A program made the position numbers and the translations under genes. A stretch of DNA of 63,148 bases, counting the filler, from Conidiobolus incongruus B7586 (lineage: Eukaryota), in the NCBI GenBank assembly GCA_000697335.1. It is 31 parts of 31 records of this genome, joined end to end, with 100 filler letters (N's around TTAATTAATTAA, not from the genome) between each part and the next. Parts side by side here need not be neighbours in the genome. Positions count along the whole stretch, not along the records: positions 29,933 to 31,354 come from JNEM01005467.1; 30 more parts are not named here. One strand, written 5' to 3'. The notes below the pieces were generated by a model. It was not told the DNA's origin. It did not search any database and saw only the letters and a program-made list of their open reading frames with translations. This document shows, piece by piece, positions 1-63,148 of the stretch (position 1 is the stretch's first letter; each line of letters starts with the position of its first letter).

Positions 1-82
1 TGTAAAATAAAAGGTTTTCTTAAATTATATTAAGAATATTAACTAGAAATAATATTATTTAAAAAAGTAATATAAAGTTTAC
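1..82 (-). mobile_element. Fragment of degenerate mariner (DD34D) element
   Basis: Matches the mariner copy at ~35510-35592 (ggttttctcaaattatatt...aaaagtaata...aagtttacta). It is followed directly by a Tc1 element at a TA site. Confidence 0.6.
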
Positions 83-84
83 TA

Positions 85-1658
85 TACTAACTTATAAAAA
101 TAAGTTATAAAATCAAAAATATATATATATTTTAATTAATAACTAAAATAATTATAGATATAAAATTAACTGAAACTATAATATAAAATTAAGGTATATT
201 ATTTGATAATAAATAAATATATTTAGATATATTTAATAAGCTATTGGCAAAAATATTAACCTTTAATATTCAACTAAAATAAGTTATAAATTTGTGTATT
301 TTTAAGATAAAGGAATATATTTAATAATATATAACCATATCTTTTTTCTTTCTTTGTTATTATTTTATATAATATTTTATAGATATAGTTAATTTTTTAT
401 ATTAATATTATTTTATTTAAATCCCTTTTTAAAAAAATTTATTTATATATTAATTTACTTAATAAAAAAACTAAATCAACTTATAATGTTATTAGAATTA
501 TTAGTGTTAGTTAGTTTACTATAGTTAAAGTTGTTAGGAATAACAATAAAAACATATTTAAATTTAAACTTAAGTATATTAAAGTCATAAATAAATATGA
601 TAAGAAATATATTTATAGGTTAGTTAATATAAGCAAATTTAGTATTATTGTAGAAATATAACAAAAACTATAAAACTATATAAAAATATTAGTTAATATT
701 AATACTATTATATATGTTTTATATTAATATAGATATTACTCACATTATAAGAAAAAACACCTTCAATTAAAAAAACCTTATTATAAAATTAAATTGGAAT
801 TTAAATATTATTAATGATATTAAATTAAAACTAATTAGAGTAAGGTTATTTAATTTAATGAAACAAAAATATATTTTAATAGATTTAATAAAAAAGCTAG
901 ATATTTTAAAAAAGATATAGAATTACTTTATGACTATTATGTTAATTTTACTTAAAAGTACAATGATAAGTTAATTATTATTTAAGGATATATTTTATCT
1001 TTAAATATAAAATATTTTTGTAAAGTTAATAGGGGAATTAATATTAAACTATACTAAAATATCTTAAATAATAAATTAAAAAAAATTATTAAATAATATA
1101 GGTTAAACAAATCTAATATTATTTTTTAATAATATAATACCTTTTGTTATATTATAACTTTTATTATCAAATAGCTTAAAAATAACAAGATATTAGTTAT
1201 AAAGTGGTTTTTTTAATTTCTTAACCTTAACCTAATTAAATACCTTTAGGATTAGTTAAAAAAAGTTATTAAAGCTTTCCCTTTAACAAAAAATTTAAAT
1301 TAGCTTTAAAAATATATATAAAAAGTATAGAATAAGATTAACCCTTTTTAATATAAAAAGTTAGTTGATTTTATACCCCATAAATTTAAAGAAGTTAGAA
1401 AAGTTAAAGGTAGATACACTAAGTTTTAATTTTTTTTATCACCAAAAACCTATAAATTTATAACTTATTTTAGGTAAAATTTAATAATTTATATTTTAAC
1501 CAATTAATAACTAAATACCATTATTTAATGATATATACTATTAATAAATATAATAGATTTTAACTATTTAATTTAAGTTTATTTCATTAAATATTAATTA
1601 AGTTATTAGTAAAAATATTAGTGTTTTTGATTTTATGACTTATTTTTATAGGTTAGTA
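85..1658 (+). mobile_element. Full-length degenerate Tc1 (DD34E) transposon, subfamily 1, with IR/DR ends
   Basis: TIRs tactaacttataaaaataagttataaaatcaaaaa / tttttgattttatgacttatttttataggttagta, flanked by TA. Transition-mutated motifs VIWSDETKI (~845-871), KWPPQSPDLNPIEHLW (~1202-1249) and C-terminal KGGYTKF*. Confidence 0.93.
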
Positions 1659-7990: not shown

Positions 7991-7998
7991 TATATAAA
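7991..7998 (+). promoter_or_regulatory. Candidate TATA box of protease gene 1
   Basis: TATATAAA lies ~60 bp upstream of ATG 8059. The paralog has TATAAAT at the same distance. Confidence 0.45.
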
Positions 7999-8058
7999 CA
8001 GTTATATTTGACAGAGTTATATCATCAAATCATTCTCGATTTATTATTTATTTATACA

Positions 8059-8899
8059 ATGCTTTCAAATTTGATCGTACTTGCTGTTTGCTTTTTGTCT
8101 TTGAACGCTGAGTCAGAAATTGAGGGGCGTATTATTAATGGAAGCGAAGCTCAACCATTTGCTTATCCATTCGTAGTTTCGCTCCAAGCTAATGGTCGTC
8201 ACTTCTGTGGGGGTTCATTACTAGATTCACGCACTGTCCTCACTGCTGCCCACTGTACCAATATCTATCCAAACAATCAAGTTACCGTGAATGTTAGACG
8301 TCATGATTTATCTAGGCAAGCATCCCAAGAAGGAGGACAATCAATTAGAATCACTAGACAAACACGCCACCCATCTTACAATGGCCAAACATTGGTTAAC
8401 GATGTTGCTATTTGGAAATTGGCTAGCCCTGTTTCAGCTCAAGTCTCTTATGTAACATTGGATGATGGATCACTTTCAAACCGAGTTGGTCTTCAAGCTG
8501 AGGCCATCGGTTGGGGACGCTATGATCCTTATACCACTGCTATGCCATCCCGTCTCCAGCGCACTGTCTTGCCAATTTTTGATACCCAACAATGTACTAG
8601 AGGATATGGATTCAATATCTCACCTCAGGCCCAAGTATGTGCTGGATATGCTCAGGGCATCACCTCTGTGTGTGAAGGAGATTCCGGAGGTCCTTTATTC
8701 GTCAGATCTGGTAATCAAGTCATTCAAATTGGTGTTGCTAGTTTTGTCAAAAACAGACAATGCTTGAACACTTATGCTCCATCGGTAAGCCAAATGAATA
8801 TGATTTGCTAAAAATATTTTGATACTAATTTTTAAATAGGTATTTGCTAGAGTTGCAAACTATAGATCTTGGATTGCCGACCAACAAAGACGATTCTAA
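8059..8899 (+). CDS. Secreted S1A (chymotrypsin-family) serine protease, elastase-like, 261 aa; exons 8059-8784 and 8840-8899
   Basis: Signal peptide MLSNLIVLAVCFLSLNA, activation site EGR|IING, motifs TAAHC, NDVAI and GDSGGP. A 55-bp GTAAGC...TACTAAT...TAG intron restores the C-terminus PS|VFARVANYRSWIADQQRRF*. Confidence 0.96.
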
Positions 8900-10573
8900 A
8901 ATAATTTTGACCAAATATAACTAAATGTTACCATTTAATGAAGCTTAATTTGTTTTATTATTTATTTATATTTGAAAAATTTTATCTAATAAAAAGGGTA
9001 TCGATTTGATATTTTAAATACTATAATATAATAGAATTTTAAATTAATTAAAGAATATAATAACTATCGAATAACTGATCATTAAGTTTTTTATAAATTT
9101 GAAAAATATATTGTTTAGGAAATTTAATCAATATATTACCCGATATTGGAAAAATGATATTCAATTGAATATTTGGAGATTAGAATATACATTTTTTAAT
9201 GGTTTAATCTCATTATTCACTATAATACTCTAAAAGTCCATAACCAGAATTTGTTATTTACTTATTTAATATTTATTCTTTGATAATTATATTCTTCAAA
9301 AAAATTAAACCTTAATTTTAGGGTCCAATTTAATCAAATATTTGTTATTTAGCTATTATCATTTAGTATTTTATAAAAGCTACTCTCAGTTTTGACATAG
9401 GTTATCATTTTTCTATTAAAAAACAACTTGGAAAAATATTGGAATTTATAAGTTTTATAATTATAATACCGCTTGATATAATTAAAAATCCAGGTTCAAC
9501 AACAGTAGCAAATAAATGAAAATCAATTATTAAATGGTAATGCCATCTTTTATATTGTGATATTATTAATTAAAAAGTATTGATCAATTATATATGTATA
9601 TTGTGATTTATTTATTTATTTTTCAAATTTACAGTAATTTAACAAAACGAAAAATTAAATATTTTTATATATAATATGGCTGTCATTTTGATAGATGTAA
9701 ATATTTTGAAAAATTGGTAATGATTTCAATATGCTTTGCTACTTTTGAAAAAACTATAAACCAAATATATTGTGAATAAAATGCCAATTTACCTACTATC
9801 TTTGAAAGCTATAAAAATGAAAATTAATCAAAAGATGCATGGTTACACATTATTGTGTTTTTCAATCATGTTACAATTATAAATTATCTATGATAAAAAT
9901 TGAATTAATAAAATATAAAATAGATTTTGGTTCAATTATAATCATTACCAGATTAATATATTGTTTTTGATTTTAACTTTTAAATAATAAAACATTGGAA
10001 ACAATGATATACATCTTCTTGATTATCATATTAATGTTTTCAAATTGAAATTTTTTCATATACTTGGAATCTTATTCGAGTATTAAATATTTATATTTTA
10101 ATGAAAAATTCATGCAATATGATTATACAGATTAGCATATAATCACTTTTATATTATTATTATATAAGTTAATATTAGTCATTACATATTTAGGACTCCA
10201 TAATATAGTTATTATATCATAGAATATGATAAATAGCTATTGTATTCGAATATAAAATTTTTTATCCATCATTGTGGAACCATTAAACAATAATTAATGA
10301 AAATATTTACTTAAACTATAAGCAGTGGATTATAAACCGTTCTTTAATCCAGTAGTAATAATATAATATTTATTGTTTGATTAAAAATTTTTATGTTACA
10401 TGTTAAGTATTAGCTTACAATGAATACAATAGATTACTAAGAGAAGTATTCATTATAATATAAATAACCAAATAATTTGAGTCTGGATTGAAACATTTTT
10501 GATAATATATTTATTAATAAATTGAAATTAATATATGTTAAATATCAATTGATCGAAAACCATTACAAGAAAT

Positions 10574-10909
10574 TGTGATTCTACCTTTTACTAGTTGAAA
10601 GTTGCTAATAAGGAGGAGAACGACTTGCTCGTGGTTTGTTTGATAGGTTGGATTAAGCTGCTTTATTAGGATTTATTAAGAGTTTAATGGGCTTCACAGA
10701 AGACTGGAAGTGATGATGAAAATGTAGTTCGACAAAGGATCTTTTATAGTCAATTTGTCAGTCGCAGATAGTGAAAAGAAGTGTATTAGCTCTTGAGAAA
10801 GATGAGACCCTAAAATGATGTGATGGGTATTCTGAGGCTATATCTCCACAAGGTAATAGATGGTGAGATGAAGTTGGTCGGCCGGGTTACTATCTTAGTT
10901 AGCACAACA
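10574..10909 (-). mobile_element. Putative solo LTR (336 bp) between the protease genes
   Basis: GC-richer island. The minus strand starts TGTTG and ends ATCACA, with internal TATAAAAG (10741-10748) and AATAAA (10662-10667). Flanks are aaat/taat (imperfect 4-bp TSD). It is homologous over its full length to 22553-22888. Confidence 0.6.
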
Positions 10910-11073
10910 TAATCAATTTATAATAATTACAAATTAAATAAATTTTTTCATCAATAACATTGATATATTAATTGGATACTGGAAAATGAAATAATGATAA
11001 AGGCACTTATTAAATAATTTATTAAATCCGATTAAAACTGAATACACATAATGATGTGAATGATTTGAAGAAT

Positions 11074-11912
11074 TTATGGCCTTCTTTGTTGATCCTGAAT
11101 CCAAGCTCTATAATTGGCAACTCTAGCAAATACCTAATTCAAAATGATTAATATGAAAAATTCAGATTAGAGTGAGATGAACTTACTGATGGAGCATAAG
11201 CATTCAAACATTGTTTGTTTTTGACAAAACTAGCAACACCAATTTGAATGACTTGATTACCAGATCTGACGAATAAAGGACCTCCGGAATCTCCTTCACA
11301 CACAGAGGTGATGCCCTGAGCATATCCGGCACATACTTGGGCCTGAGGTGAGATATTGAACCCATATCCGCTAGAGCATTGTTGGGTGTCAAAGATGGGC
11401 AAGACTGTACGCTGAAGACGAGATGGTAAAGCAGTAGTGTAAGGATCATAGCGTCCCCAACCAATAGCTTCAGCTTGGAGACCAACTCGGTTTGCGAGAG
11501 ATCCATCATCCAATGTTACATAGGAAACTTGAGCAGTTACGGGACTTGCCAACTTCCAAATTGCTACATCATTATTCAATGTCTGGTCGTTGTATTGTGG
11601 ATGACGAGTCTGTCTAGTGACTCTAATAGCTTGTCCTCCTTCCTGAGATGCTGGTCTTGATAAATCATGACGTCTAACATTAACAGTGACTTGACTATTT
11701 TGATACAAACTAGTACAGTGAGCAGCAGTGAGGACTGTGCGAGAATCCAAGAGAGAACCACCACAGAAGTGCTGACCATTAACTTGAAGAGATACAACGA
11801 ATGGATAAGCAAAGGGTTGAGCTTCACTTCCATTGATTATACGGCCTTCGGGAGTGGGACTGGCAGCCAAAGTTACGATAGTAGTGGCGAGCAAGATTAA
11901 ATTGCTAAGCAT
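11074..11912 (-). CDS. Secreted S1A serine protease paralog, elastase-like, 261 aa; exons 11912-11187 and 11133-11074
   Basis: Signal peptide, PEGR|IING and the catalytic triad motifs are present. A 53-bp GTAAGT...TAG intron sits at the same position as in gene 1, giving C-terminus VFARVANYRAWIQDQQRRP*. Confidence 0.96.
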
Positions 11913-11970
11913 TGCAGTAAATATTTATTCTAGTTGATTGGATAATTTTTCATTTAGTTGTTTAAATGAT

Positions 11971-11977: not shown

Positions 11978-13238
11978 CTTTAAATTTTACATATTAAAAA
12001 TTAATTAAGTCCGAGATATATCAATTATTCAATTAATTTTTAATTAATTACTCATATGATCAGTGAAATATAATATCTAGTATTTCATAAACGATTAAGC
12101 TCCATATGGCTTTATGGCATCTTTGCAGAGTAAGATATCTGGTTTCTTACATAATCAATTATTTCGGAAGTATATTCAACGATATTCACGATTATAATAG
12201 GATAAAATTATAAATCAGTGATAGTTAATTAAACAAATTAATTTATTCATTAAAAAACATGTCTAATATATATTTGCACTATCACATGGTTACAAATTTT
12301 GTTTACACAATTTAATTATTAGTGATACAATAAAAATTTATAATCTCGATCATTAGTTATTATTTAAATTTTTGATAATTAAATTTAGAGCTAATAATTA
12401 CCTTTCACGGTTAATTATCAGCATTTACTTGTATAAACCCATATACTAGAATAATAATTTTAATTCTTATCAATAAATATTAATCAAAAAAAATAATGAA
12501 TAACTTGCTTTATTATAATAGATTTTAAAAAATCTTTTTAATTAATTATATTTTTTATATACATCTTTAATCAATAATACAATTTATATTTTAAACGACA
12601 AATAATTAATCATCCAATGTTTCTTAAAATGAATCTAAGGCTTTCTTTATATCACATGATATATTCATAAATCTTGATTTTTAAAAAACATTCAAAGTTG
12701 CAAATATCTTTAATACACTTATGTCAAAAAATTACTAAATATTAATTAATAGAATTCGAACTTTGAGATCATATTTCTATATATTGAATTATTTTTTATC
12801 CGATTTTTTACTTTTTAAATATATATTTAATTGAGAAATAATTGGCCAAATATTTAAAAAAAAATAAAAAATTAAGATTATGTTATTAAATTTGGTTTTT
12901 AAATATTTTATTAATAAAATTATCTTAATATATTGAATTTTTTGAAGTGAATTATGAAAAAAGATTTATACATAAATCAAAACAAGTTGAGTTATATAGA
13001 CTATAATATTTTTGATTATATAAGAAAATCCCGAAATTCCCCTTTTTTTATTAATTTTATATTCAAACACTATTTCAAATATAACTTGCATATACAATAT
13101 TAAATATTGATAAGACAAACTTGTTCATAATACACTATCCACAGGTTAAATACCATAAACATAGAATGATTTGATCAAATATGTAAAACATAGGCTATAT
13201 AAATTTTGAAAATAATTAATATATAGCTAACCATATAC

Positions 13239-13260
13239 ATATATATATATATATATATAT
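13239..13260. repeat. (AT)n microsatellite
   Basis: 11 perfect AT units. Confidence 0.85.
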
Positions 13261-13499
13261 CATCTATGTTTAATTTCAATAAATGAAAATAGTAATTTTC
13301 AATGATCAAGTTCCATAAGTTATAAAACCATTATATTTATCAAGCAAATAAAGAAATATGGTTAAATTCAGATATAAAATATCAAAGTAATACTGCGAAT
13401 GATTCAATCAATATTTAATATATATTACCTTAGATTTAAAGAAATTTAAGATTTTTTAATATCTAATTTTTAAATATATTATTAGTTTCAAAAAATATT

Positions 13500-14227
13500 T
13501 GCAAAATAAGGAATAATATAATTTTAAACTCTATATATAAATATATAATAGCTTTTTTGATTAAAGAATAAATTTTTAAAATAAATAGTTCAATTTAATC
13601 ATATTTAAATCAAATAATAATTATCAAAAGTCTGGTATTTTAGTATTGGTAAAGCTTAACTATAAACCCTCTAAAATTATTTGAAAATTAAAAACAAATT
13701 TCAATAATAAAGTATTATATAGTTTAGGAATTTTTTATTATATAAATTATTTTAAAAATAAGAAAAAATAATTAAAATTTGTTAAACTTTATAAAGCTAA
13801 TTTTAATAATTATTTTTTTAATTATTAATAGAATTAAATATTTGAAAAAATATTATTTATTTTAATTAAAAAAGTATTAAACCATATTAATATTAATTAT
13901 ATAAGTATTCTATATATATTAAATTTAAGCTTAAATTAATAAATAAAAATATAAAATTAGTATTTTATAATTAAATTAAAACTTAATAAAACTACAATAG
14001 TTATTATTAATTATAATATATTAAATTATAACCAAAACCTAAGCTTTTTATAATAAATTATCATAATTAATAAAAGTTGTTTATTCTATATAATTGTCTA
14101 TTAAAATATAAATCAAGATATTAAAATAAATAAAATTAATCTCTTTTATAAATCATTTTAATAAATATTTTATTTATAAGTAAAAAATAATTATTATAAT
14201 AAAATATAATAATTTATGCTATTTTTA
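13500..14227 (+). mobile_element. Degenerate mariner element, 5' part
   Basis: Colinear with the copies at 18215-18938, 30285-30960 and 62021-62740. Boundaries are approximate. Confidence 0.75.
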
Positions 14228-14399: not shown

Positions 14400-15510
14400 T
14401 ATATATAATATTTAAAAATAAAAATATATTATAAATTTAATTGTTTTTGTTATCATTAATAACTTTTTGCGATATTTTTAGCAAACTTTCAATACTAAAA
14501 ACCTATTTTATTTTATTAAAAATGGATATTTAATATTTCACAAATAAATAAATTTTTTTGCAAATATATTTATTTTTGCAAGCTGGTTTTTTAATTACCT
14601 AAAGCAATTATAATCATATAGGTTAAAGTCTAAAGAATATACTAATTATGGTAGATTTCTTCAGTAATTTTTAATAAAATAATATTTACAGCTTTAGATT
14701 TATATATTTTAAAATTATTATGCAAAATAATAAATTTTTATAAAAATGCTTTAAAACATTAATTAAGAATAGTTTTTTAAAAAAAACAATATAAAGCTTA
14801 CTAATTCTTTATTTTTCTTCAGGAACTGAATAAATAAAAAATATAAAATTTTATTCCATTATAATTATTAATATTTATTTTTAATAAAATAATTAGTTAA
14901 AGGAATTTGTATAAAAGGTTATTTAGTATAATTTAGCTCTTTGATTTGTGTTTTAGTAAAGGATTATATATAAGGATTTAAAATTTATCAAATTCAATTT
15001 TTTTTGCAAAAGATTTGGTTTCTAGAAATACTTTATTAAGTTTTGTTTAATAACAGCGATTTTAGCTTTTTTATAATTTTTAATTAAATTTAATGATTTT
15101 TATTTTATATTATTATTGATTAATTTAAGTTTGAATTTTAAAATATATATATATAATACTTATAAAACTAATATTAAAGTTTTTAGATAATTTTTAGGAA
15201 TAAATAATAAGGTATATTTCAATATATTTTTCATTTTATTAATAATTAAAAAATATTGATATCAATTTATTTATTTTCAACAAGTTTTAGATACCTTTTC
15301 TCTTAGCCTTAAAGTCATTTACCTCGCAATAAATTATTAATTTAGAATATATTTTATTATGAGAAAGTTGTTTACAAATTTTATATAATTATGAAGAATT
15401 TATGGTTATTTTATTGATACCATATTAAAAGATTCTTGATAATCACTATATGGTTTAAGCAAGATTAAATTAAATAATTAATTTTAAAAAAAATATTTTT
15501 AATCAAAATA
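14400..15510 (-). mobile_element. Degenerate mariner element
   Basis: Reverse-complement homolog of the mariner family. Relics of the YSPD.NP.DY and W.KVI motifs lie at ~14460-14650. Confidence 0.8.
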
Positions 15511-18214: not shown

Positions 18215-19825
18215 ATATACAAAACAAATAAGAAAATAAATAATTTTGAATTATATATATATAATAATTTTTTTGATTAAAAAATTTATTTTTTAAAATT
18301 AATTATTTAATTTAATTATACTTAAACTAAATAATAACCATCAAAAGTTTTTTATTTTAGTATTAGTAAAACTTAACTACTAACCCTTTAAAATTATTTA
18401 AAATTTACAAGTAACTTTTAATAATAAAATATTATCTAAATCAGCAATTTATTGCTAGGTAAATTATTTTAAAGCTAAAAAAAAACTACCTAAAACCTAC
18501 TAAAATCTAAAAAATTAATTTTAACTATTACTTTTTTAATTATTAATAAAATAAAAAATTATATTGAAAAATACTTTTTTATTTCAACTAAAGAATTATC
18601 AAGACACTATAATATTAGTTACATAAGTATTTTATATATATTAAAGTTTAAAATAAAATTAATTAATAAAAATATAAAATAAATACCTTATAATTTAACT
18701 AAAGCTTAAAAAAAGCTAAAGTAGTTATTATTAAATAAAACTTACTAAGATATAACTAGAAACTAAAGCTTTTACAATAAATTATTATAATTAATAAATC
18801 TTAAATTTTGTTGTATAATCTTTTACTAAAACATAAATCAAAGTGTTAGATTAAGTTAAATCAACCCCTTTTATAAATTTTTTTAAATAAATACTTTATT
18901 AATAAGTGAATGTTAATTATTATAATAAATTATAATAGTGATAAAGAATAATCTTGTTAATTACTTAAGAAACTCCAATTACTATAGGATTCAAGAAGTC
19001 ACATTAGAGATATTATACCCTATAAACTAGTTGATCCTATTATTTTCTACCTGTAAGTTATTTATATCCACAAAAATCAACAATAGAACCTAATATAAGA
19101 TTATCATAAGTAAACTAATAAACACATCTTTTATCTTTATTTTCAAAAGTATACTGTTTCTAAGTTTTTCTCATAACTTTCACAAAAGTATTGAGTTGTA
19201 ACAAGTGTGAGATATTTACTTTATTCAAAGAACTTAATTTGTAACAAGTTATTTTCACCTACTTTAATAAACCCTAATAATTTCCTTTAATTACATAGTA
19301 ATTTATTATTTACCACTGGTGATTTTTTGTTTAAGCTTGTAAAACCTATTGTTGTTAATGTTAACACCTAACAATAGCATATGTTATTCTTATTTAGTAT
19401 TTAAAAAAAATCAATTAATAGTAAATATTATATTTCTTTTTTAAATAAAACTATTTTTAATTAGTATTTATAATATAATTTGAGAAAACTTATTATTTTG
19501 AATGATAGTTATAAAATACATAAATTTAAAATTGTAAAAAACTTTATAATTAAAAATAACTAGAAAAAACTACTATATTTACTATATTCTTTATATTATA
19601 ACTTATATAATTATAATTACTTTAAGCAATTAAAAAACTAGTTTATAGGAAAGAAAATTTCTGTAGAAAAATTTAATTGGTTTGTGAAATATTAAATTTT
19701 AGTCTTTAATAAAAAGAATTATTTTTTAGATATTAGATTTTTACTAAAAGTATAGCAAAAAGTTATTAGAAATAAAAAAAATCATTAATTTTATATTATA
19801 TATTTATTTTTATTTTTTATATATT
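18215..19825 (+). mobile_element. Near full-length degenerate mariner (DD34D) interrupted by a solo LTR
   Basis: HTH relic LSKSAIY.W...FK, linker TAA ATA CCT TAT AAT TTA (W-I/V-P-H-N-L, 18680-18697, WVPHEL-like) and C-terminal LPKVWQKVI relic. Confidence 0.85.
18939..19373. mobile_element. Solo LTR (435 bp) inserted in mariner
   Basis: Begins TGATA and ends TAACA, with a perfect 4-bp TSD ATAG (18935-18938, 19374-19377). The uninterrupted site is seen in the mariner copy at ~30950-30970. Confidence 0.8.
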
Positions 19826-29932: not shown

Positions 29933-30280
29933 ATAATTAATTATATTTCATTAACTATTAGTTAATATATTAAAGCCTAAAATTTAACCAAAATAAGTTA
30001 TAAAATTTCAAGTTTATAGATTAAAAGGATAAAATATCAAAATTTATATATTTTATATTTTTTTATAATATTAAATATATTATGATATTATTAACTTGAT
30101 ATTTTGTAATTTATAATAAATATTAAAGTTTTTTATTAAAAAGATTTATTTATATATTAATTAACCTTATAATAGAAATAAATCAATAAATAAAATTATA
30201 ATAATTATTAATATTAGCTAATTATTATTTAAATAATCAAAAAAAATTTTAAAAATATAGTTAAACTTAAACTAATATAT
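29933..30280 (+). mobile_element. Tc1 subfamily 2 5' fragment
   Basis: Contains the inner DR aaccaaaataagttataaaattt and the start of the transposase relic. Confidence 0.65.
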
Positions 30281-30284
30281 AATA

Positions 30285-31354
30285 AATTTTTTAGTTAAAA
30301 AATTAATTTTTTAAAATTGGTTGTTTAATTCAAATATACTTAAATTAAATAATAACTAACAAAATACTTTTATTTTAATATTAGTAAAGCTTAACCATAA
30401 ACCTTCTAAAATTATTTAAAATTTATAAGCAACACTTGGTAATAGAATATTATCTAAATCAATAATTTATTGCTAGATAATTAATCTTATAATTAAGAAA
30501 AAAACTACCTAAAACCTATTAAAATTTAAAAGACTAATTTTAACTATCATTTTTTTAACTATTAATAAAATAAAAAAACATATTGAAAAATATTCTTTTA
30601 TTTTAACTAGAGAATTATCAAAATATTTTAATATCAGTTATATAAGTATTCTATATATATATTATTGTTTATATTAAAAATAATTAATAAAAATATAAAA
30701 TAAATAATTTATAATTTAATTAAAACTTAAAATAAAACTAGAATAGTTATTGCTAAATAAATCTTAATAAGATATTACTAAAAACCAAAGATTTTATAAT
30801 AAATTATTGTAATTAATGAATCCTAAGCTCTTTTGTATAATTCTTTATCAAAACTTAATTCAAAGTGTTGGATTAAGCCAAATTTACCCCCTTTATAAAT
30901 TCCTTTAAATAAATATTTTATTGATAAGCAAATGTTAAATATTATATTAGATTATAATAATATATGTTATTTTTATTTAGTTTTTAAAAGAAAATCAATT
31001 AATAGTAAATTTTATATTTCTTTTTTAAATATAACTATTTCAAATTATTATTCTCAATATAATTTGAGATAACCTATTATTTTATAAGATAATTATAAAA
31101 TACATAAATCTAAAGTTATAGAAAACTGTTTAATTACAAATAACTAGAAAAAAATACCATATTTAATATATTCTTTAAATTATAACCTATGTGATTATAA
31201 TTGTATTAGGTAATTAAAAAACTAGCTTATAGGAAAGAAAATTTTTGCTAATAAATTTAATTGGTTTATAAAATATTAAATTTCAATCCTTAATAAAAAA
31301 TATTGTTTTTTAAGTATTAGAAGTTTATCAAAAACTTAACAAAAAGTTATTAAT
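30285..31354 (+). mobile_element. Degenerate mariner element with intact D34D spacing
   Basis: AAT GAA TCC TAA (DESW relic, ~30815). GAT at 31088 and GAT at 31193 are separated by 34 codons, in a PH..YSP.YNPCDY context. Confidence 0.88.
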
Positions 31355-40129: not shown

Positions 40130-41691
40130 NNNNNNNNNNNNNNNNNNNNNNNNNNNNNNNNNNNNNNNNNNNNTTAATTAATTAANNNNNNNNNNNNNNN
40201 NNNNNNNNNNNNNNNNNNNNNNNNNNNNNTATTTAATAATAAATTAATTATATCTCAACTAATAATATTGGATTATAATTGTATATTAAAATTCTTAATA
40301 TTATTAAAAGATATATATATATATATTATAAAACCAAATTAATATAAAAATAGTAAGTTATTATTATAATACTTTTATATTAAGCTTTTAATTGCATTAA
40401 TTTATTTATTTTATAAAATTATTAAAATTAAAATATCAAAATTATTTTATAAATTATTTAAATATTGTATTTTATATGTTATTTTATTATTAAAAATTTA
40501 ATTAATTTTAATCTATTGAATAAAGCAAAATATATAAACATAGCATATTTAATGAATAAATTCATTAATTTGAATTTATATTACATTTAACAAAAAATTT
40601 TTGTTATTCGTTTGAATAATTATTTAAATTTGATTTTAATATAAAAGTTTAATCAATTATTTAATTACTTCCCATCCAAAACAATATTATTAATACAAAA
40701 CATATTGTTAGATTGAATTTTTTAAGTTTTAACAAGTACTATATATTTAATTCAATGGTTGAATATAATAATATTTAGTGACATTAACCCATTTGAATTA
40801 GAATAATCTGGTCAATATTTATTATATGTAACAATAAGTATATTGAATGTTGAGTACTCTTTAATAAAATTATTAGATAATAATATATATTGATGATTTT
40901 TTTATAATAGTATGAAGAATTAATATTAATAAACTTATATTATAATTTTACATATCAATCCCAATTGCAAAAAATAAAAAATTATTTGATTAATTGATAA
41001 ATAGGATATTCAAATAATAATTAGGAGTATATTAAATAGTCATTCTATCTTTTTACAGCTAAACCAAACTTTTTCATTATAAGTCTAAGGATTTTATGAA
41101 TATATAAGACAGGACTAAATCCTTAACTTAATTAATCTTTTAGGTTAACCAAATTTAGTTTCAATGAAAATATTATTTTGTAATATTTCATTTCAAATAA
41201 ACTTTAATTTTAAATAGATATTAGTACTAAGTTGATGGAAATATTTCAGTTTGTATCCTTTGGAACCATATAATTGATAAAAAACATATAATTATAATTA
41301 ATTTTTTGCCCTATGATATCTAAGTAAATATGAATTAATTAGAATTGGAAGCTAATATTTTTCATGTGCTTGACTTTGGTGGGAAATATTTCAAAATAAG
41401 TTATTTTCATTGTTGCATTGTGCAAATATTCAGGGTTTATATCACAACACATTTATTTTGAAAATGCCCATATGGCACCTGATGATGAAATCATTAGCGA
41501 TTATCATAAACATGCATTATTAAAAGATTATAAGTTTGAAATAATTTACAACATTATTTTTGAAATTTTAATTTGTACAACAAGCACTTGTTCATAACGT
41601 TTAAACCCTAATAAGCGATCTGAATTAATTAATTTATTTAAACTGCGAATATAAACAAGCTATATGGTTATATAGCGTAAATGGTAATTAG

Positions 41692-43876
41692 TTACTCATT
41701 AGAATACAACTTAGCCCTTTTGTTATGCTTAGACAAGAGGATACTTAGATCTCTTAGTACAAAAGCACAGATGACGCAGTTGAAAAATCCAGTGACAGTA
41801 TTGAGTCTGGTTAAAACTTGGCTATTTAAACTATCCAAAGTTACTTTACTTTGATAATGAACATACCATTGTTCCAGAAACTGTGAACTTTTAAAGAGTT
41901 TGCTCACATTATTAATATAAAGAGATGTAACGTGCGATTGGTTAGTCTTGAGCTGCAATAACTGCATTTTCATCGATTTTGTAAGTTTGTTTCCAAAAGA
42001 AAGTAATGCTGAACTTGAAGATGGGCGTTTCAGTGGCTGAATGAAGGGTAGTTTCTTGGCCAATCCATTTTGAACACTTGTTAAAACGTGATCAAATCCT
42101 TCAAGCTCTCTCAGTACTTTGTACGGATCTTTAAAATTAATATTTTGAAATTTTTCCAAACAACTAGTAATTATTTCACAACTACTCGTTTTCATCTCAA
42201 TGGCTGGAATTTTGATACTATCTTGGTACCATAAATGTTTGGGAATAAAAAGTTTCTTGGTAATATAACCTCCGCTAATCATAGAAGTTTCCAAATTGCG
42301 CATTAGCCAAAAGACTCTTAATTCGGAAGATTGGGGGGGAGGGATGAATGTGACGGAGTTAACAGAGCTTTCATAAAAGAACCTTTGTATGGCGGATAAG
42401 CTAGGTCTTTTAGATGCAGGTGCAGCTTCAGGTGTGTCATGGTATTCAAGTGTTTGTGAGGTAGGAAGAAGGAAAGAACTTGGACGGGGGATGTTTGGGA
42501 TGGAGAGTTGCCTGGTGTGGATCATGGTTGGGGAAGCAGAGCTCGAAGATCCTTCATATATAGTATTCATTACATTAGTTAAAGATGGAGAGTAGGGTGA
42601 GCTGGTTAAATTAGAGTATGCATCATTTGGGGTAATGATCGTAGAATGGCGCTGGTTAGGAAGCGTTTTTGGGTGAATGGAGTGGCTTTTGGAAACATAA
42701 ACATTTGGGGCTGGGGGAGATGATTCTGATTCTGGAACGATTTGACCTTTAGGCTGATAAGATTGTTTTGGAGCGGAGCCTGGTATAAAGTGGTTAATAT
42801 TAGGAATAACTGGCACTGATTGGTGCTTTTGAGCGATGGACAGCCGTTTAGAAGAATTAATTTGTTTGACTGGATTATCGAGTATAAAGCTATCATTTTC
42901 GTCTTCTTCTGTGAGTTTTGGCAAAGAGAGGGCAGCAGGATCATCTAGTTGGTCAAAAGAAGTTTCCTCTGGATTTGATAATGGATCGCTCTTATACGAT
43001 TTATTAAAGTTGGTGGTTATTTTAAGGCCATGAAAAATTGATGGATTAGATTGATTTAAACTTGGTGTTTGGTCATTCCAAATAGATAGAGTATCTATGA
43101 AAAATCAATATTATTGAAAGTGTAAATTTTGGACAAAACTTACTGGAATCAGTTAAAGTATTATCTGACTGATTATTATTATAGGCATCGGTGTCACTAA
43201 GAGATAAAGGAGGAAGATACTCAGGTTCATATTGGTCAAAATTGTTGTTGTCCATATCCACAGTTCTTGTTGTCGGTGAATTAGGATTGTCGGTATTTAA
43301 ATTAGAATAGCTTGAGTTAAGTAAAAGACTGGTAGAATCCGAAATTGAATCGTATCCACTTAGTGTAGATTCCTCTACCATGTTTATGTCGTGACTAGGG
43401 TTTAAAAAACTAAGCTCAGGAGTCGCATTTAGATAACTCGTTAACAAGGTCACTCTTTCAAGATATGCTTGCTTCTAAATAGAATGTATAAGTAAAGTGA
43501 AATTATAGGCGCATAATATAAAACTTACAATATCAATTAGGCGATTCCTAGTTGGATTATTAACTTTGGGGTCAGCTTGTGTATTATCATTTAAAACTTC
43601 TTCAATTAGGTCTAATGCTTCTTGATAAGCAGATAATGCAGTAATAAAATCATTTTCATTATCTAGCTCAACAGCAAGCTGCGCTTTTTGTAGAGCATTG
43701 AATAAGAGTGCTTGAGAATGGGATATTGTAGAGCTTTGGATTGTACTTGAGGCGTAATTGGTATTATTGTTATTATTAGTATTATTACTTGTGGTATTAG
43801 TACTAGGACTTCGATAATGCATCGTATCACGAGGCTGTGGAGAAATATGACTGGGTATTATGCTTGTAGTAATCAT
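41692..43876 (-). CDS. MIT-domain protein with conserved fungal C-terminal domain, 693 aa; exons 43876-43529, 43474-43144 and 43094-41692
   Basis: MIT helices ALQKAQLAVELDNENDFITALSAYQEALDLI...RLIDI|KQAYLERV. Introns of 54 bp (43475-43528) and 49 bp (43095-43143) are GTAAGT...TAG and join the three ORF-track segments in frame. The C-terminal block FWLMR...GGYITKKLFIPKHLW is typical of fungal MIT proteins. Confidence 0.9.
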
Positions 43877-46665
43877 TGGAGTTTTGTTGTTTAGGGTGTA
43901 TTAAGTTGAATAAATTACAGACAAGGGTTAGAATATTGTTTAGCTGTTTTTTTTAAAAAAATACTATATACAATAGAGTGAAAAGGTGAGTTGTTTAAAA
44001 TATAGTTAGAAAACGAGTATTGAATAATATAAGTATTGTCAATAAACAAGTAAATAATAGAATATTAATTAATTAATTAATTATAAAATATTCAAATCGT
44101 ATTTACAAAAGGGTTGAATAAAAAAACAGTGTTTTATATTTGTTATTCAATTTAATAAATGAATTATGCAAGTAGTTTAGCAATTGGTCATAGTTTGGCT
44201 AATTTGCCTTGGTGTTTAAGTGTCAGAATAGATATCAAACTGGAAATGGCGGAGATAATTGATAGAATAATGGGAATGGAATTGAGGGAATAATTTGAAA
44301 GTGGGGAAATGAGCATCTGTTAATTGACCAAATTGTTTTGTATTGGTTTGGGTTTAACTAATTTAGTTTTAAATTAAATTCATTTTGTTTGAACAGTCAT
44401 TACTTGGGGTGTGATTGAAATCTTCATTTTGATTGGTTAGTTTCCTAAATATCCTCATTAGATATTTTTAGTATTTAAGTTTTTGAATATATTCGATTGT
44501 TATATCTAACCAAACCAGTTATTTCATCGTAATCAATCATATTATATTTTAATAACAACATTCATTGTTAAAGACGTAATGAAAATTATATAGTGGATTG
44601 TAATTTGCTATTCGAACCTTGAAAATATTGGTTTTTTATTTGATTGGTTCAGAATACAAACCAAACATTAAAGCCATAAATAATATAATTAAAAAAAGAT
44701 TGGTTGGAAAAAATTTGATTTATCTTCGATTTTCCCTTTTGACAGATCATATATTAAAATCGAAATTACATGCGGTATTAAACCGTTATTTTTCATTTGA
44801 GTAACAAGATGAAAATTGAAAAATAATGTAATTTGCTAAATTGAATACTGAATTTAACAGATTATGTTGAGTATTATATATACTGTAAGTTATTATAAAT
44901 TCTGTATATTTTTATTTATTTAAAGAAAGTATTTACCTTCCAATCATTGTAAATCAATAACTTTTCAAGAGTAAGGTAAGATCATAAAAGGAAATTTATG
45001 ATAATTTGCCATTTTTGAACCAATTTGTTTAAAACTAAAAATTACAAAATATTAAAAAAAATATAATATTATTATTTTATAAAGTGTTCATAAGATAAAG
45101 TTAATAAATATTTCTATTATATATTTATATTTTGATTTAGTAAATAAATTCATTGTTAATTTAATGATAAAATAATAAATATGATATATAAAGTTTTATT
45201 TAATTATATAATTTATTATTATTTATATATTATTTAAAAATTAACTTTAAATTATTATATCAATATTTTTAAATTAATTGACAGATTAAAAATATTATTT
45301 ATAAAATTATAAAATAATAATTATAGTTNNNNNNNNNNNNNNNNNNNNNNNNNNNNNNNNNNNNNNNNNNNNTTAATTAATTAANNNNNNNNNNNNNNNN
45401 NNNNNNNNNNNNNNNNNNNNNNNNNNNNATATGAAAAATATATTATATTATTGAATTAACCAAAATTGCTTTTTTAAATCTTAAATTATCAATATATATT
45501 ATTTTAAACTTTGTAAATATTATTATTTAAAAAAATATAAATAATTTTAATTATCTTTTCTCTAATTAAATTCAATAATTTTAAATTATAATATTTTTTT
45601 GAATTTATAAATAAAATAAATATATTTTAATTTTTCCAATAATTTTTATTAATATTCTATATCAAATCAAATAGAGTATTTATAGTAATATTTTAGTTTT
45701 TGTTTAAAATAATTTTATCAACATTATTAACTATCTTAATATTATTCAATAATAACTTATTATTTATATAATAGTCCAAAACTTATTATCAAATCTCTTT
45801 ATCATCAATATGCCAAATGGATAAATTGGATTTAAATATAACATATTTAAAATATATTTCAGAATATTTGATATACTAGCTTATTATTAAAATATAAAAT
45901 AAATATATTACTACTTTGTAATATAATATTATTATAATTGAGTTTTTATAATGTAATTATTATTGATATTGATTATATTTATTACAAATCCATAACTATT
46001 CTTGGAATTCCCATAAATCATATTATAACTAATTTTTTTATAAATGGTTAAACTTTATAGCCCTCCGCAATAGTGGACTTTGGTGTAGCTAGTTTATAAT
46101 AGCCTTTTTTGGCTTGGCTTCCCTTACATTCTGATTTTACTTAATTTATCTAATAAATCTGGTTATTATTTATTATAATATATTATTTTCAGATATAATA
46201 TATATTAAAATTAAATATATAATTGATAATAATAAATAAAGGTATATTTTGACAATAATAATAATATTATATCATATAATAAAATATTATTAATAATTTT
46301 TAAAAATTTAGTGAATTTTTAATAATTTTATATTTTTTAATTTTTTCAACTAAATATTATAATAAAAATTTTTAAAATTTAATAAATATTTAAAACTTTA
46401 TGATTTTTTATAAATTATATATAGTTAGAAGTTTTTATCAAAAATATATAATTAGTTTTTTATAATATACTAGTAAAAACTTTATAATTTAAATATTAAC
46501 AGATTTTCTATATATTTTTAAATTGATTGAATTATATTTGGTTTTATCAATAAATAATATGATTGNNNNNNNNNNNNNNNNNNNNNNNNNNNNNNNNNNN
46601 NNNNNNNNNTTAATTAATTAANNNNNNNNNNNNNNNNNNNNNNNNNNNNNNNNNNNNNNNNNNNN

Positions 46666-62020: not shown

Positions 62021-63148
62021 ATATACAAAATTAATAGGAAATTATATATTTTTAATATATATATATATATAATAATTTTTTTTATTAAAAAAATTAACTC
62101 TTTAAAACTGGTTGTTTAATTTAATTATATTTAAACTAAATAGTGATCATCAAAAGTCTTTTATTTTGGTATCAATAAACTTAGCCATAAGTTTCTAAAA
62201 TTATTTGAAATTTATAAATATTTTTTGGTAATAGAAAATTATCTAAAATAACAATTTATTACTAGATAAGTTATTTTAAGATTAAAGGAGAAATTATCTA
62301 AAACCTGTTAAAATTTAAAAAATTAATTTTAATTGTTATATTTTTATTTATTAATAAAATAAAAAAGTATATTAAAAAATACCCTTTTATTTTAGATAAA
62401 GAATTACCAAGATATTTTAATATTAATTATATAAGTATTTTATATATATTAAAATTTAAAATTAATAAATAAAAATATAAAATAAATATTTATAATTTAA
62501 CTAAAGCTTAAAAAAAGCTAGAATAGATATTATTAAATAAAACTTACTAAGATATAGCTAGAAACCAAGATTTTTAAAATAAATTATTATAATTGATAAA
62601 TCTTTAATCTTTTTTTATAATTCTTTAATAAAACATAAATCAAAATATTAGATTAAGCTAAATCAACCCTTTTTATAAATTTCTTTAAATAAATACTATA
62701 TCAATAAGTGAATAATAATTATTAAAAAAGATTATAATAATATTGACTATTTTTATTTAATTTTTAAAGAAAAATAAATTAATAATAAATTATATATTAT
62801 TTTTTTAAATAAAACTATTTTTAACTAATATTTTCAATATAATTTAAGAAAATGTATTTCTTATATAATAATTATAAAATATATAAAGCTAAAGATAAAA
62901 ACAAACTTTCAAATTAAAAATAACTGGAAAAAATTACTATATCTAGTATATTCCTTAAATTATAACCCATGTGATTATAATTGTTTGGGATAAATAAAAA
63001 ACCAACTTATAAAAAAAATTCATATAAAAAAAATTAATTTTATATATAAAATATCAAATTTCAATTTTTAATAAAAATAAATGATTTTTAGGTATTAGAA
63101 CTTAATTAAAAAAATAACAAAAATTTATTAAAAATATAGGAAATTATT
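62021..63148 (+). mobile_element. Degenerate mariner element
   Basis: AAC TGG AAA AAA TTA ... TAT TCC ... TAT AAC CCA TGT GAT TAT at 62922-62978, followed by GGT ATT AGA (GIR) near the C-terminus. Confidence 0.88.

What the first reader, a model, noticed from the sequence alone, without database searches (positions are those of the whole stretch)
30285..31354. True DD34D mariner family in a fungal genome: candidate horizontal transfer from an arthropod host
Seen: about 8 copies whose reverted translation gives IYRW...FK.G......PRSGRP, W(V/I)PHNL, DESW, QDN...H, HP.YSPDYNPCDY and GIR.LPKVWQKV, with exactly 34 codons between the second and third Asp (31088 to 31193). Known: WVPHEL, YSPDLAP and DD34D define mariner elements (Mos1/Himar1), which are typical of animals and prone to horizontal transfer. 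Fungal Tc1/mariner elements are mostly Fot1/pogo or Tc1-like. Inference: an insect-associated fungus could have acquired this family from a host. The YSPDYNPCD variant is atypical.
Basis: partly seen in the sequence, partly recalled or inferred. Interest (0 to 1): 0.72.

Follow-up and report, generated by a model that had tools for sequence, protein, structure and literature searches.

The report
Dead mariner transposons in Conidiobolus-like fungus
This stretch is one of many dead, mutation-riddled copies of a true mariner-type (DD34D) jumping gene in the genome of a Conidiobolus-like fungus, a host group where such elements are rarely reported; it likely belongs to a side branch of mariner whose named members are all animals, but a jump from an insect host is not shown.

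Summary
The window is 31 small contigs joined by N linkers. Contig 13 (29933-31354) carries a decayed mariner copy. Its raw translation, with stops read as X, matches the Mos1 transposase (E 2.9e-7). D2 (31088) and D3 (31193) are 34 residues apart, as in Mos1.

Seven contigs hold sizeable copies that are 70-84% alike, and one more holds a fragment. One copy lies on the contig with two trypsin genes that are 60-66% identical to Conidiobolus coronatus proteins. The host is therefore a Conidiobolus-like fungus, not a contaminant.

A search of 1.84 billion proteins found about 350-aa relatives with HDNARPH, then 34 residues, then YSPDxxPCD(Y/F)NCFG.

Relatives named by organism are sawflies and a nematode, and none is fungal. 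However, the best identity is only about 35%, tree placement within the lineage is unresolved, and all copies are old and dead. Thousands of short contigs from the source runs match the element, so the family is very abundant.

Transfer from an arthropod host is neither supported nor excluded. This is a new member of a known kind, of moderate interest.

The parts
30193..31354 (+). Mariner copy on contig 13 (the finding). It runs into the contig end, and the DNA upstream (29933 to about 30190) belongs to a different repeat.
   Evidence: blastn; MAFFT alignment of copies; clade profile 115.6 bits, E 2.9e-35, over 30674-31354
30348..30650 (+). Decayed N-terminal DNA-binding (HTH) part of the transposase frame
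   Evidence: Weak profile match to positions 11-111, 8.6 bits, E 0.0099. The motif IY.W...K.G.....RP is seen in the de-mutated consensus.
30701..30718 (+). Remnant of the WVPHEL-type linker motif, read as stop-I-I-Y-N-L in this copy
   Evidence: Translation. Relatives read WVPY/H.L.
30815..30817 (+). First catalytic Asp position. It reads AAT (Asn) here, and Asp is kept in copy c31.
   Evidence: Aligned with Mos1 D156 region 'GDEKW'; A2 alignment
31082..31105 (+). L-stop-D-N-Y-K-I-H, the HDN..H motif holding the second catalytic Asp (GAT, 31088-31090)
   Evidence: Aligned with Mos1 'LHDNAPSH'. At 31085 about 69% of the k-mer depth (X1) laid from the source run reads C, which gives CAA, Gln.
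31169..31198 (+). Y-S-L-N-Y-N-L-C-D-Y, a decayed YSPDYNPCDY motif holding the third catalytic Asp (GAT, 31193-31195), 34 residues after the second
31313..31354 (+). C-terminal S-I-R-S-L-S-K-T-stop-Q-K-V-I-N, which corresponds to G(I/V).KLP.RW..V in relatives
62065..63131 (+). Copy on contig 31, 80% identical to c13
   Evidence: 74 bits
28783..29831 (-). Copy on contig 12, 78% identical to c13
   Evidence: 107.7 bits
35244..36393 (-). Copy on contig 16, 77% identical to c13
   Evidence: 56 bits
18043..19768 (+). Copy on contig 7, split by a 436-bp insertion of unrelated DNA with 24% G+C (about 18938-19373)
14455..15508 (-). Most decayed copy, on contig 4 (74% identical to c13, many frameshifts)
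13442..14227 (+). 5' half of a copy at the end of contig 3, the contig that carries both trypsin genes. This links the family to the fungal genome.
   Evidence: blastn 73.8% over 808 bp, E 7e-135; trypsin ORFs at 7960-8811 and 11148-11924
3..141 (-). 139-bp fragment of the element on contig 1
   Evidence: blastn 76.9% over 147 columns

Best explanation
The region is one dead copy of a very abundant DD34D mariner-type DNA transposon family in the genome of a Conidiobolus-like (entomophthoralean) fungus. The family likely belongs to a divergent mariner lineage marked by HDNARPH, 34 residues, then YSPDxxPCD(Y/F)NCFG.

Inferred from what is known of Mos1 and Himar1, not shown here: the ancestral element would have moved by cut-and-paste. 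A roughly 350-aa transposase, with an N-terminal helix-turn-helix pair, a WVPH-type linker and an RNase-H-like DDD domain, would bind short terminal inverted repeats, excise the element and reinsert it at TA.

Shown here: the copies in the window carry dozens of stops and frameshifts and have drifted to 12-14% G+C, mostly through G:C to A:T changes.

Inferred: the family amplified long ago and is now extinct, or nearly so, in this genome.

How it first entered the fungal lineage is unresolved. It may have come by old horizontal transfer from an animal or another eukaryote, or it may be a long-term resident.
For: Mariner identity:
- The raw translation matches only Mos1 and SETMAR among PDB chains (E 2.9e-7 and 1.2e-4), with all three catalytic positions aligned and no gap between D2 and D3.
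- The spacing of 34 is kept in the 4 copies that cover both Asp positions.

Lineage:
- hmmsearch of the copies' alignment against 1.84 billion representative proteins gave 70 hits at E<=1e-3. The top hit scored 6.4e-19, and the top hits are about 350-aa proteins that carry PF01359, PF13358 and in part PF17906.
- 27 of 32 relatives show spacing 34 and the PCD(Y/F) motif.
- Raw c13 scores 117 bits against a profile of this lineage and 53.7 bits against a profile of classical mariners. The de-mutated consensus scores 188 and 100 bits.
- The careful tree puts the family inside the 31-row lineage clade, with support 88/79.

Fungal host:
- The trypsin genes on the same contig as one copy are 60-66% identical to Conidiobolus coronatus proteins. 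The next named group (ascomycete trypsins) is at about 40% or less.
- G+C of the copies matches that of the other repeat contigs.

Abundance: 5375 and 6649 short contigs from two runs of the source sample lie on 30710-31354 at 80% likeness or more.

Decay:
- 34 stops in 356 codons.
- Copies are 70-84% identical to each other and 9-20% from their majority consensus.
- Reverting C/T and G/A polymorphisms to C and G raises the best score from 78 to 128 bits.
- Of the differences between c13 and the other genomic copies listed for run X1 (at 20% or more of the depth), 61 of 105 are places where c13 has A or T and other copies have G or C.
Against: - Terminal inverted repeats could not be shown. 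The best 5'/3' complementarity was reached by 51 of 500 shuffles.
- TA duplications cannot be read in DNA that is 88% A+T.
- On the raw translation Pfam stays below its cut-offs: Transposase_1 scores 13.3 bits against 24, and DDE_3 scores 16.1 against 28.6.
- The tree row is a consensus of only 7 copies. It has the longest end branch (1.57) and a deviant amino-acid make-up.
- An AU test does not reject a position on the stem next to the classical mariners (p 0.213).
- The counts of contigs are not copy numbers, and low-complexity A+T DNA may inflate them.
- The fungal assignment rests on one contig that joins the genes to a half copy.
Confidence: 0.85

Rival explanations
1. One reading: the family entered this insect-associated fungus by horizontal transfer from an arthropod host.
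For: - Every relative named by organism is an animal. In one search the 20 named rows are 18 arthropod, 1 nematode and 1 sponge. In one search all 5 named rows are arthropods.
- Within the lineage itself the named members are sawflies (Cephus, Neodiprion) and Haemonchus.
- No fungal name appears, although fungal proteomes are in the database.
- The Atlas look-alike clusters are Rotifera, Arthropoda, Nematoda and Parabasalia, and none is fungal (leads only).
- Section 6 of PMC7325037, which I read, lists arthropods, excavates, flatworms, gastropods, nematodes and rotifers as mariner hosts, and not fungi.
- The AU test does not reject a grouping with the sawfly-containing subclade (p 0.148).
- That Conidiobolus species can infect insects is recalled knowledge, not from a call.
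Against: - No close arthropod relative exists. The best identity is 31-35% over about 210 residues, far below what marks documented mariner transfers.
- The free tree places the family beside an unnamed metagenome protein (P0332, support 93/74), not inside the sawfly subclade.
- Most members of the lineage come from unnamed metagenome or run assemblies, so their hosts are unknown.
- The copies are old, so the present ecology says little about the donor.
- No relative was found in viral contigs that could serve as a vector.
Confidence: 0.2
2. The family is a long-term, vertically inherited resident of early-diverging fungi. It looks animal-like only because decayed fungal copies are never annotated as proteins and so are missing from protein databases.
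For: - The copies are old and dead, so gene callers would not report them.
- Tc1/mariner-superfamily DNA makes up 12-14% of two other entomophthoralean genomes (PMC10515909, passages read).
- PMC5751038 (passages read) counts PF01359 among fungal Tc1/Mariner markers and calls one Conidiobolus genome TE-rich.
- An earlier, unchecked note of this scan reports a dead Mos1-type mariner in Basidiobolus.
- The family's position in the tree is basal and unresolved.
Against: - No fungal protein appears among the 120 and 59 listed relatives.
- No fungal cluster appears among the Atlas look-alikes.
- The cited papers do not separate DD34D mariners from Tc1 or pogo in fungi.
- Not tested directly, because no fungal genome collection was available.
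Confidence: 0.3
3. The AT-rich contigs are contaminant or symbiont DNA (for example from an animal or protist in the sample), not the fungus's own.
For: The window is a string of short unlinked contigs, and most copies sit on contigs without genes.
Against: - One copy is on the 8.7-kb contig with the two Conidiobolus-like trypsin genes, with no N in between.
- Gene-flanking DNA on the gene contigs is also very A+T-rich, at 17-22% G+C.
- The family is extremely abundant in the same runs that hold the trypsin gene.
Confidence: 0.03

Closest known systems
Mos1 (Drosophila mauritiana mariner; PDB 2f7t, 3hos) and Hsmar1/SETMAR (PDB 3k9j), the classical DD34D mariners
   Same: - DDD triad with 34 residues between the second and third Asp.
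- The HDN..H and YSPD...D(Y) motifs, and a WVPH-type linker.
- A transposase of about 350 aa in an element of about 1.2-1.3 kb.
- These are the only PDB families hit.
   Different: - Only about 54 bits against a classical-mariner profile, compared with 117 bits against its own lineage.
- YSPDxxPCD(Y/F)NCFG in place of YSPDLAPSDYHLF.
- The host is a fungus.
- All copies are dead.
Unnamed divergent mariner lineage found here: P0122-P0130, P0196-P0216 and P0327-P0332, plus the 'SETMAR-like' proteins of the sawflies Cephus cinctus and Neodiprion spp. and a Haemonchus contortus protein
   Same: - Signature motifs and DD34D spacing.
- Best profile scores.
- Same clade in both trees.
   Different: - At most about 35% identity to the de-mutated consensus.
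- Those proteins are intact ORFs, mostly on roughly 1.3-kb contigs of unknown hosts.
- I found no published name for this lineage. Whether it equals one of the 13 subfamilies of PMC7325037 could not be checked, because that tree is in a supplement I did not open.
Fungal Tc1-like (impala, DD34E/DD37E) and pogo/Fot1 (DDxD) elements
   Same: Same superfamily, and the usual kind of cut-and-paste element in fungi (established knowledge; PMC7325037, passages read).
   Different: - The third catalytic residue here is Asp at spacing 34.
- There is no CENP-B-like domain.
- PDB and profile searches hit mariners only.

Membership tests
mariner (DD34D) family of the IS630-Tc1-mariner superfamily | Catalytic D, D, D with 34 residues between the second and third Asp | tested here: met
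   GAT at 31088 and GAT at 31193 align with Mos1 D249 and D284 without gaps. The spacing is the same in the 4 copies that cover both and in 27 of 32 relatives, with 5 unmatched by the regex. The first Asp reads Asn in c13 and Asp in c31.
mariner (DD34D) family of the IS630-Tc1-mariner superfamily | Significant sequence similarity to mariner transposases (Pfam Transposase_1, PF01359) | tested here: inconclusive
   On the raw translation Pfam is below cut-off, at 13.3 against 24 bits. However, phmmer against Mos1 gives E 2.9e-7, a profile of intact relatives that carry PF01359 gives E 2.9e-35 on the raw translation, and a profile of classical mariners gives 53.7 bits. The de-mutated consensus could not be given to the Pfam tool.
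mariner (DD34D) family of the IS630-Tc1-mariner superfamily | WVPHEL-type linker motif between the DNA-binding and catalytic domains | tested here: inconclusive
   c13 reads stop-I-I-Y-N-L at 30701-30718, and the consensus of copies reads stop-V-P-Y-N-L. Relatives read WVPY/H.L. The Trp is inferred from a stop codon.
mariner (DD34D) family of the IS630-Tc1-mariner superfamily | YSPDL.P.DY motif around the third Asp | tested here: met
   Y-S-L-N-Y-N-L-C-D-Y in c13. Other copies keep D and P at the decayed places, for example YSLDYN.CD in c12 and NYNPCDY in c31. This variant is shared by the whole lineage.
mariner (DD34D) family of the IS630-Tc1-mariner superfamily | Element of about 1.2-1.3 kb with short (about 20-30 bp) terminal inverted repeats | tested here: inconclusive
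   The shared length among copies is about 1.2 kb. Candidate terminal arms in c7 and c16 are 72-76% complementary, but the consensus ends are not better than shuffles, with 51 of 500 reaching the score.
mariner (DD34D) family of the IS630-Tc1-mariner superfamily | TA target-site duplication | not testable with these tools
   The ends are not defined to the base, and the flanks are about 88% A+T, so a TA at any boundary is uninformative.
Tc1 (DD34E) and pogo/Fot1 (DDxD with CENP-B-like domain) | Glu as the third catalytic residue (Tc1), or 30-36 spacing with a CENP-B/HTH_Tnp_Tc5 domain (pogo) | tested here: not met
   The third residue is Asp (GAT, 31193). There was no hit to those families in Pfam or the PDB.
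Horizontal transposon transfer from an arthropod | Transposon similarity between donor and recipient far above that of their host genes, and nesting inside a donor clade | tested here: not met
   The best identity to any protein is 35%, and to the named sawfly proteins about 31%. The family is not nested in the sawfly subclade in the free tree, although the AU test does not reject that grouping (p 0.148). The patchy host range of the lineage is compatible with transfer somewhere in its history.
RIP (repeat-induced point mutation) as the cause of the decay | C-to-T and G-to-A transitions confined to repeats, with a CpA preference | tested here: inconclusive
   - Pairwise differences between copies: C/T 1245, A/G 1241, A/T 1478, other 514, so the decay is not transitions alone.
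- No CpA preference at polymorphic columns: 46 are followed by A and 57 by T.
- The composite RIP index is +0.08 to +0.49 in four copies and -0.41 to -0.64 in gene-flanking DNA.

The most novel reading that the evidence does not exclude
An animal-type DD34D mariner lineage crossed kingdoms into an entomophthoralean fungus, then exploded to hundreds or thousands of copies before a repeat-directed, RIP-like G:C-to-A:T process outside the Dikarya killed it. This would be the first documented mariner burst in Fungi.
Probability: 0.2. Interest if true: 0.6.

Novelty: new member of a known kind. Interest (0 to 1): 0.35.

Why it matters
Host range: true mariners (DD34D, Pfam Transposase_1) are regarded as elements of animals and a few protists. 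The broad survey I read (PMC7325037, section 6) lists no fungal hosts. A very abundant mariner family in a Conidiobolus-like fungus widens that range.

A test case for transfer: the family offers a concrete way to ask whether fungi that live on or in animals exchange transposons with them.

An undescribed lineage: the work also flags an apparently undescribed mariner side branch (PCD(Y/F)NCFG) with a patchy host range of sawflies, a nematode and this fungus.

Limits: the copies seen are dead, the mechanism is textbook and the transfer is unproven, so the interest is moderate.

Tried and rejected
- No whole genome is held for this window, so genome-wide copy counts and a good consensus were not possible.
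- The first protein alignment (A1) misplaced the catalytic fragments and was dropped. A2 replaced it.
- The first blastn, with permissive scores, was swamped by A+T low-complexity matches. It was rerun with stricter settings.
- The profile of the copies was no better than the single copy against the PDB (Mos1 E 2.1e-5).
- Terminal repeats: the repeat finder gave 123 and 91 inverted pairs in two contigs, which is noise. The test on consensus ends was not significant.
- The genome-contig scan found only distant (24-33%) mariner pieces in bacterial MAG contigs and IS630-like genes, and none of this lineage.
- The viral-contig scan found no relative.
- The look-up of sequencing runs listed no RNA holder.
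- Earlier-findings look-ups by place and by sequence found nothing.
- Literature searches found no report of a DD34D mariner family in Entomophthoromycotina or of this lineage. Supplements of PMC7325037 and PMC5751038, which may list fungal PF01359 elements or the mariner subfamilies, were not opened.
- Ciliate-type stop reassignment was considered because 33 of the 34 stops are TAA or TAG. It was rejected: the real genes in the window are open under the standard code, and the stop count is roughly what the base composition would give.
- Pure RIP was considered and not upheld.

Full report
**What the window is.** The 63,148 bases are 31 short contigs (1.0-8.7 kb) joined by N44-TTAATTAATTAA-N44 linkers. 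Most of it is 9-16% G+C. Only contig 3 (5558-14227) and contig 19 (40230-45328) hold long ORFs at 36-43% G+C. Contig 3 carries two trypsin-family genes (PF00089, E 1.1e-42). Contig 19 carries a gene with an MIT domain. The trypsin at 8059-8808 is 60-66% identical to proteins named from Conidiobolus coronatus and to unnamed JGI proteins. The next named fungi and animals are at about 40% or less. The genome is therefore that of a Conidiobolus-like entomophthoralean fungus. No whole genome is held for the window.

**Checking the observation.** The finding is contig 13. Read from 30287, the frame has 34 stops in 356 codons. That is roughly what the base composition would give, so an open frame is not the evidence here.

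The evidence is similarity. With stops as X, the translation hits only mariner transposases among all PDB chains: Mos1 at E 2.9e-7 and SETMAR/Hsmar1 at E 1.2e-4. In that alignment:
- I-N-E-S-stop lies on Mos1 G-D-E-K-W.
- L-stop-D-N lies on L-H-D-N.
- L-C-D-Y lies on P-S-D-Y.
- There is no gap between the last two Asp, so the spacing of 34 (31088 to 31193) is real.

On the raw translation Pfam stays below its cut-offs: DDE_3 E 0.01 and Transposase_1 E 0.079.

**Copies.** Stringent blastn finds the element on c31, c12, c16, c7, c4 and c3 at 74-80% identity over 0.8-1.2 kb, plus a 139-bp fragment on c1.

The first 260 or so bases of contig 13 belong to another repeat, seen on ten other contigs.

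The c3 copy (13442-14227) lies 1.5 kb from a trypsin gene on the same gap-free contig, which ties the family to the fungus.

A gap-free protein alignment of the catalytic halves (A2) shows the same D-34-D spacing in the four copies that cover both positions. It also shows that residues decayed in one copy survive in others: D1 in c31, and P and D of YSPD in c31, c12 and c4.

**State of the copies.**
- They are 70-84% identical pairwise and 9-20% from their majority consensus.
- They are full of frameshifts.
- Differences are C/T 1245, A/G 1241, A/T 1478 and other 514. This is strong G:C-to-A:T pressure plus ordinary drift in A+T-rich DNA, not transitions alone.
- Restoring C or G wherever any copy keeps it raises G+C from 9% to 29%. 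It also raises the best match to an intact relative from 78 bits (profile) to 128 bits. This supports directional decay.
- Contigs from the source sample's runs add to this. Of the differences from c13 listed for run X1 (carried by 20% or more of the laid depth), 61 of 105 are places where c13 has A or T and the others have G or C. One example is 31085, where about 69% of the laid depth in X1 reads C and so restores CAA-GAT-AAT, Q-D-N.
- The same call laid 5375 and 6649 short contigs from two runs on the 645-bp catalytic half at 80% likeness or more. The family is therefore very abundant, though these counts are not copy numbers.

**Which mariner.** hmmsearch of A2 against 1.84 billion representative proteins gave 70 hits at E<=1e-3, with the best at 6.4e-19. 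The top hits are about 350-aa proteins reading ...AIDESW......ILHDNARPHKSK......PPYSPDLHPCDYNCFGPLK... and ...KLPDRW..V. In a wider set, 27 of 32 match HDN..H, 34 residues, then YSPDxxP.D(Y/F); 5 did not match my regex.

These proteins carry PF01359 and PF13358, and some carry PF17906. Classical arthropod mariners are only 24-31% identical to them and score far lower: 255 bits and below, against 300-544 bits within the group.

A profile of the lineage finds raw six-frame translations of six window contigs: c13 115.6 bits (E 2.9e-35), c12 107.7, c31 74, c16 56, c7 38.6 and c4 16.7. Raw c13 scores 117 bits on this profile against 53.7 bits on a classical-mariner profile.

**Trees.**
- A quick tree of 65 rows and a careful tree of 43 rows on the catalytic domain both put the de-mutated consensus inside the lineage and apart from the classical mariners. 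Support in the careful tree is 88/79.
- Inside the lineage there is a three-way split. One branch is the window family with the unnamed P0332 (93/74). The second is an 8-row subclade with the sawflies Cephus and Neodiprion. The third is a 21-row subclade with Haemonchus.
- The window row has the longest end branch (1.57) and an odd amino-acid make-up.
- AU tests reject neither a union with the sawfly subclade (p 0.148) nor a position on the stem beside the classical mariners (p 0.213). Lineage membership therefore rests more on profile scores and motifs than on the tree.

**Hosts of the relatives.** Relatives named by organism are all animals:
- 20 rows: 18 arthropod, Haemonchus, and the sponge Oopsacas.
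- 5 arthropod rows.
- Four Neodiprion species in one 90% cluster.

Most lineage members come from unnamed run or metagenome assemblies on contigs of about 1.3 kb. Atlas look-alike clusters are Rotifera, Arthropoda, Nematoda and Parabasalia (leads only). No fungal name appears, though fungal proteomes are in the database. Scans of prokaryote genomes and viral contigs gave nothing of this lineage.

**Horizontal transfer.** The pattern is compatible with transfer somewhere in the lineage's history, since sawflies, a nematode and a fungus share it. Published surveys fit this:
- Section 6 of PMC7325037 lists no fungal hosts for the mariner family.
- PMC5751038 (passages) lumps PF01359 with other Tc1/Mariner markers in fungi.
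- PMC10515909 (passages) reports 12-14% Tc1/mariner-superfamily DNA in two Entomophthorales, without subfamily detail.

The specific claim of acquisition from an arthropod host lacks its defining evidence. There is no close animal relative (35% identity at best), no supported nesting, and the family is old. The alternative is a long-resident fungal family that is invisible in protein databases because it is dead. That could not be tested without fungal genome assemblies. An earlier unchecked note of this scan (e1-7322823) reports a different, Mos1-type dead mariner in Basidiobolus. If true, it would mean mariners are less rare in these fungi than the literature suggests.

**Mechanism.** By homology with Mos1 and Himar1 (established knowledge), the ancestral element would have encoded a transposase that binds short TIRs, cuts out the element and inserts it at TA. 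Shown here are the transposase remnants, the DDD geometry, the multi-copy state and the decay. Not shown are the TIRs (not significant), the TA duplications and any activity.

**Verdict.** The mariner-in-a-fungus reading is supported and sharpened to a divergent DD34D lineage that is hugely amplified and dead. The arthropod-host transfer is open. This is a new member of a known kind, of moderate interest.

Noticed in passing
window 18938-19373 (inside the mariner copy on contig 7): A 436-bp insertion at 24% G+C interrupts the copy. It has no other copy in the window and ends in a short palindromic stretch. It may be a younger small element or a solo end of one.
   Followed up: partly
window 29933-30190, and contigs c8, c14, c17, c11, c22, c24, c18, c1, c26, c10: The DNA upstream of the mariner copy on contig 13 is a second, unrelated repeat family. 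It is present at 70-78% identity on ten other contigs of the window, and its nature is unknown.
   Followed up: no
mariner copies against gene-flanking DNA (5558-7900, 8900-11100, 12000-13400, 40230-41600, 44000-45328): The composite RIP index is positive in four mariner copies (+0.08 to +0.49, at 12-14% G+C) and negative in unique non-coding DNA next to genes (-0.41 to -0.64, at 17-22% G+C). This hints at a repeat-directed, RIP-like process in a non-Dikarya fungus. The counts are small, and no CpA preference was seen at polymorphic sites.
   Followed up: partly
window 7960-8811 (+) and 11148-11924 (-): Two closely similar secreted trypsin-like protease genes lie in opposite orientation about 2.3 kb apart. 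This looks like a recent local duplication of a family that is expanded in Conidiobolus.
   Followed up: no
window 41692-43900 (-): A gene with an N-terminal MIT domain (E 1.7e-8) is followed by a long Ser/Pro/Asn-rich region and a C-terminal part with no Pfam match. It is split over three adjacent reading frames, probably by short introns.
   Followed up: no
proteins P0330, P0403-P0405, P0407 (Neodiprion spp.): The sawfly members of the lineage are 90% or more identical across four Neodiprion species and are annotated as single SETMAR-like genes on chromosome-scale scaffolds. This could be a conserved (domesticated) transposase rather than an active element.
   Followed up: no
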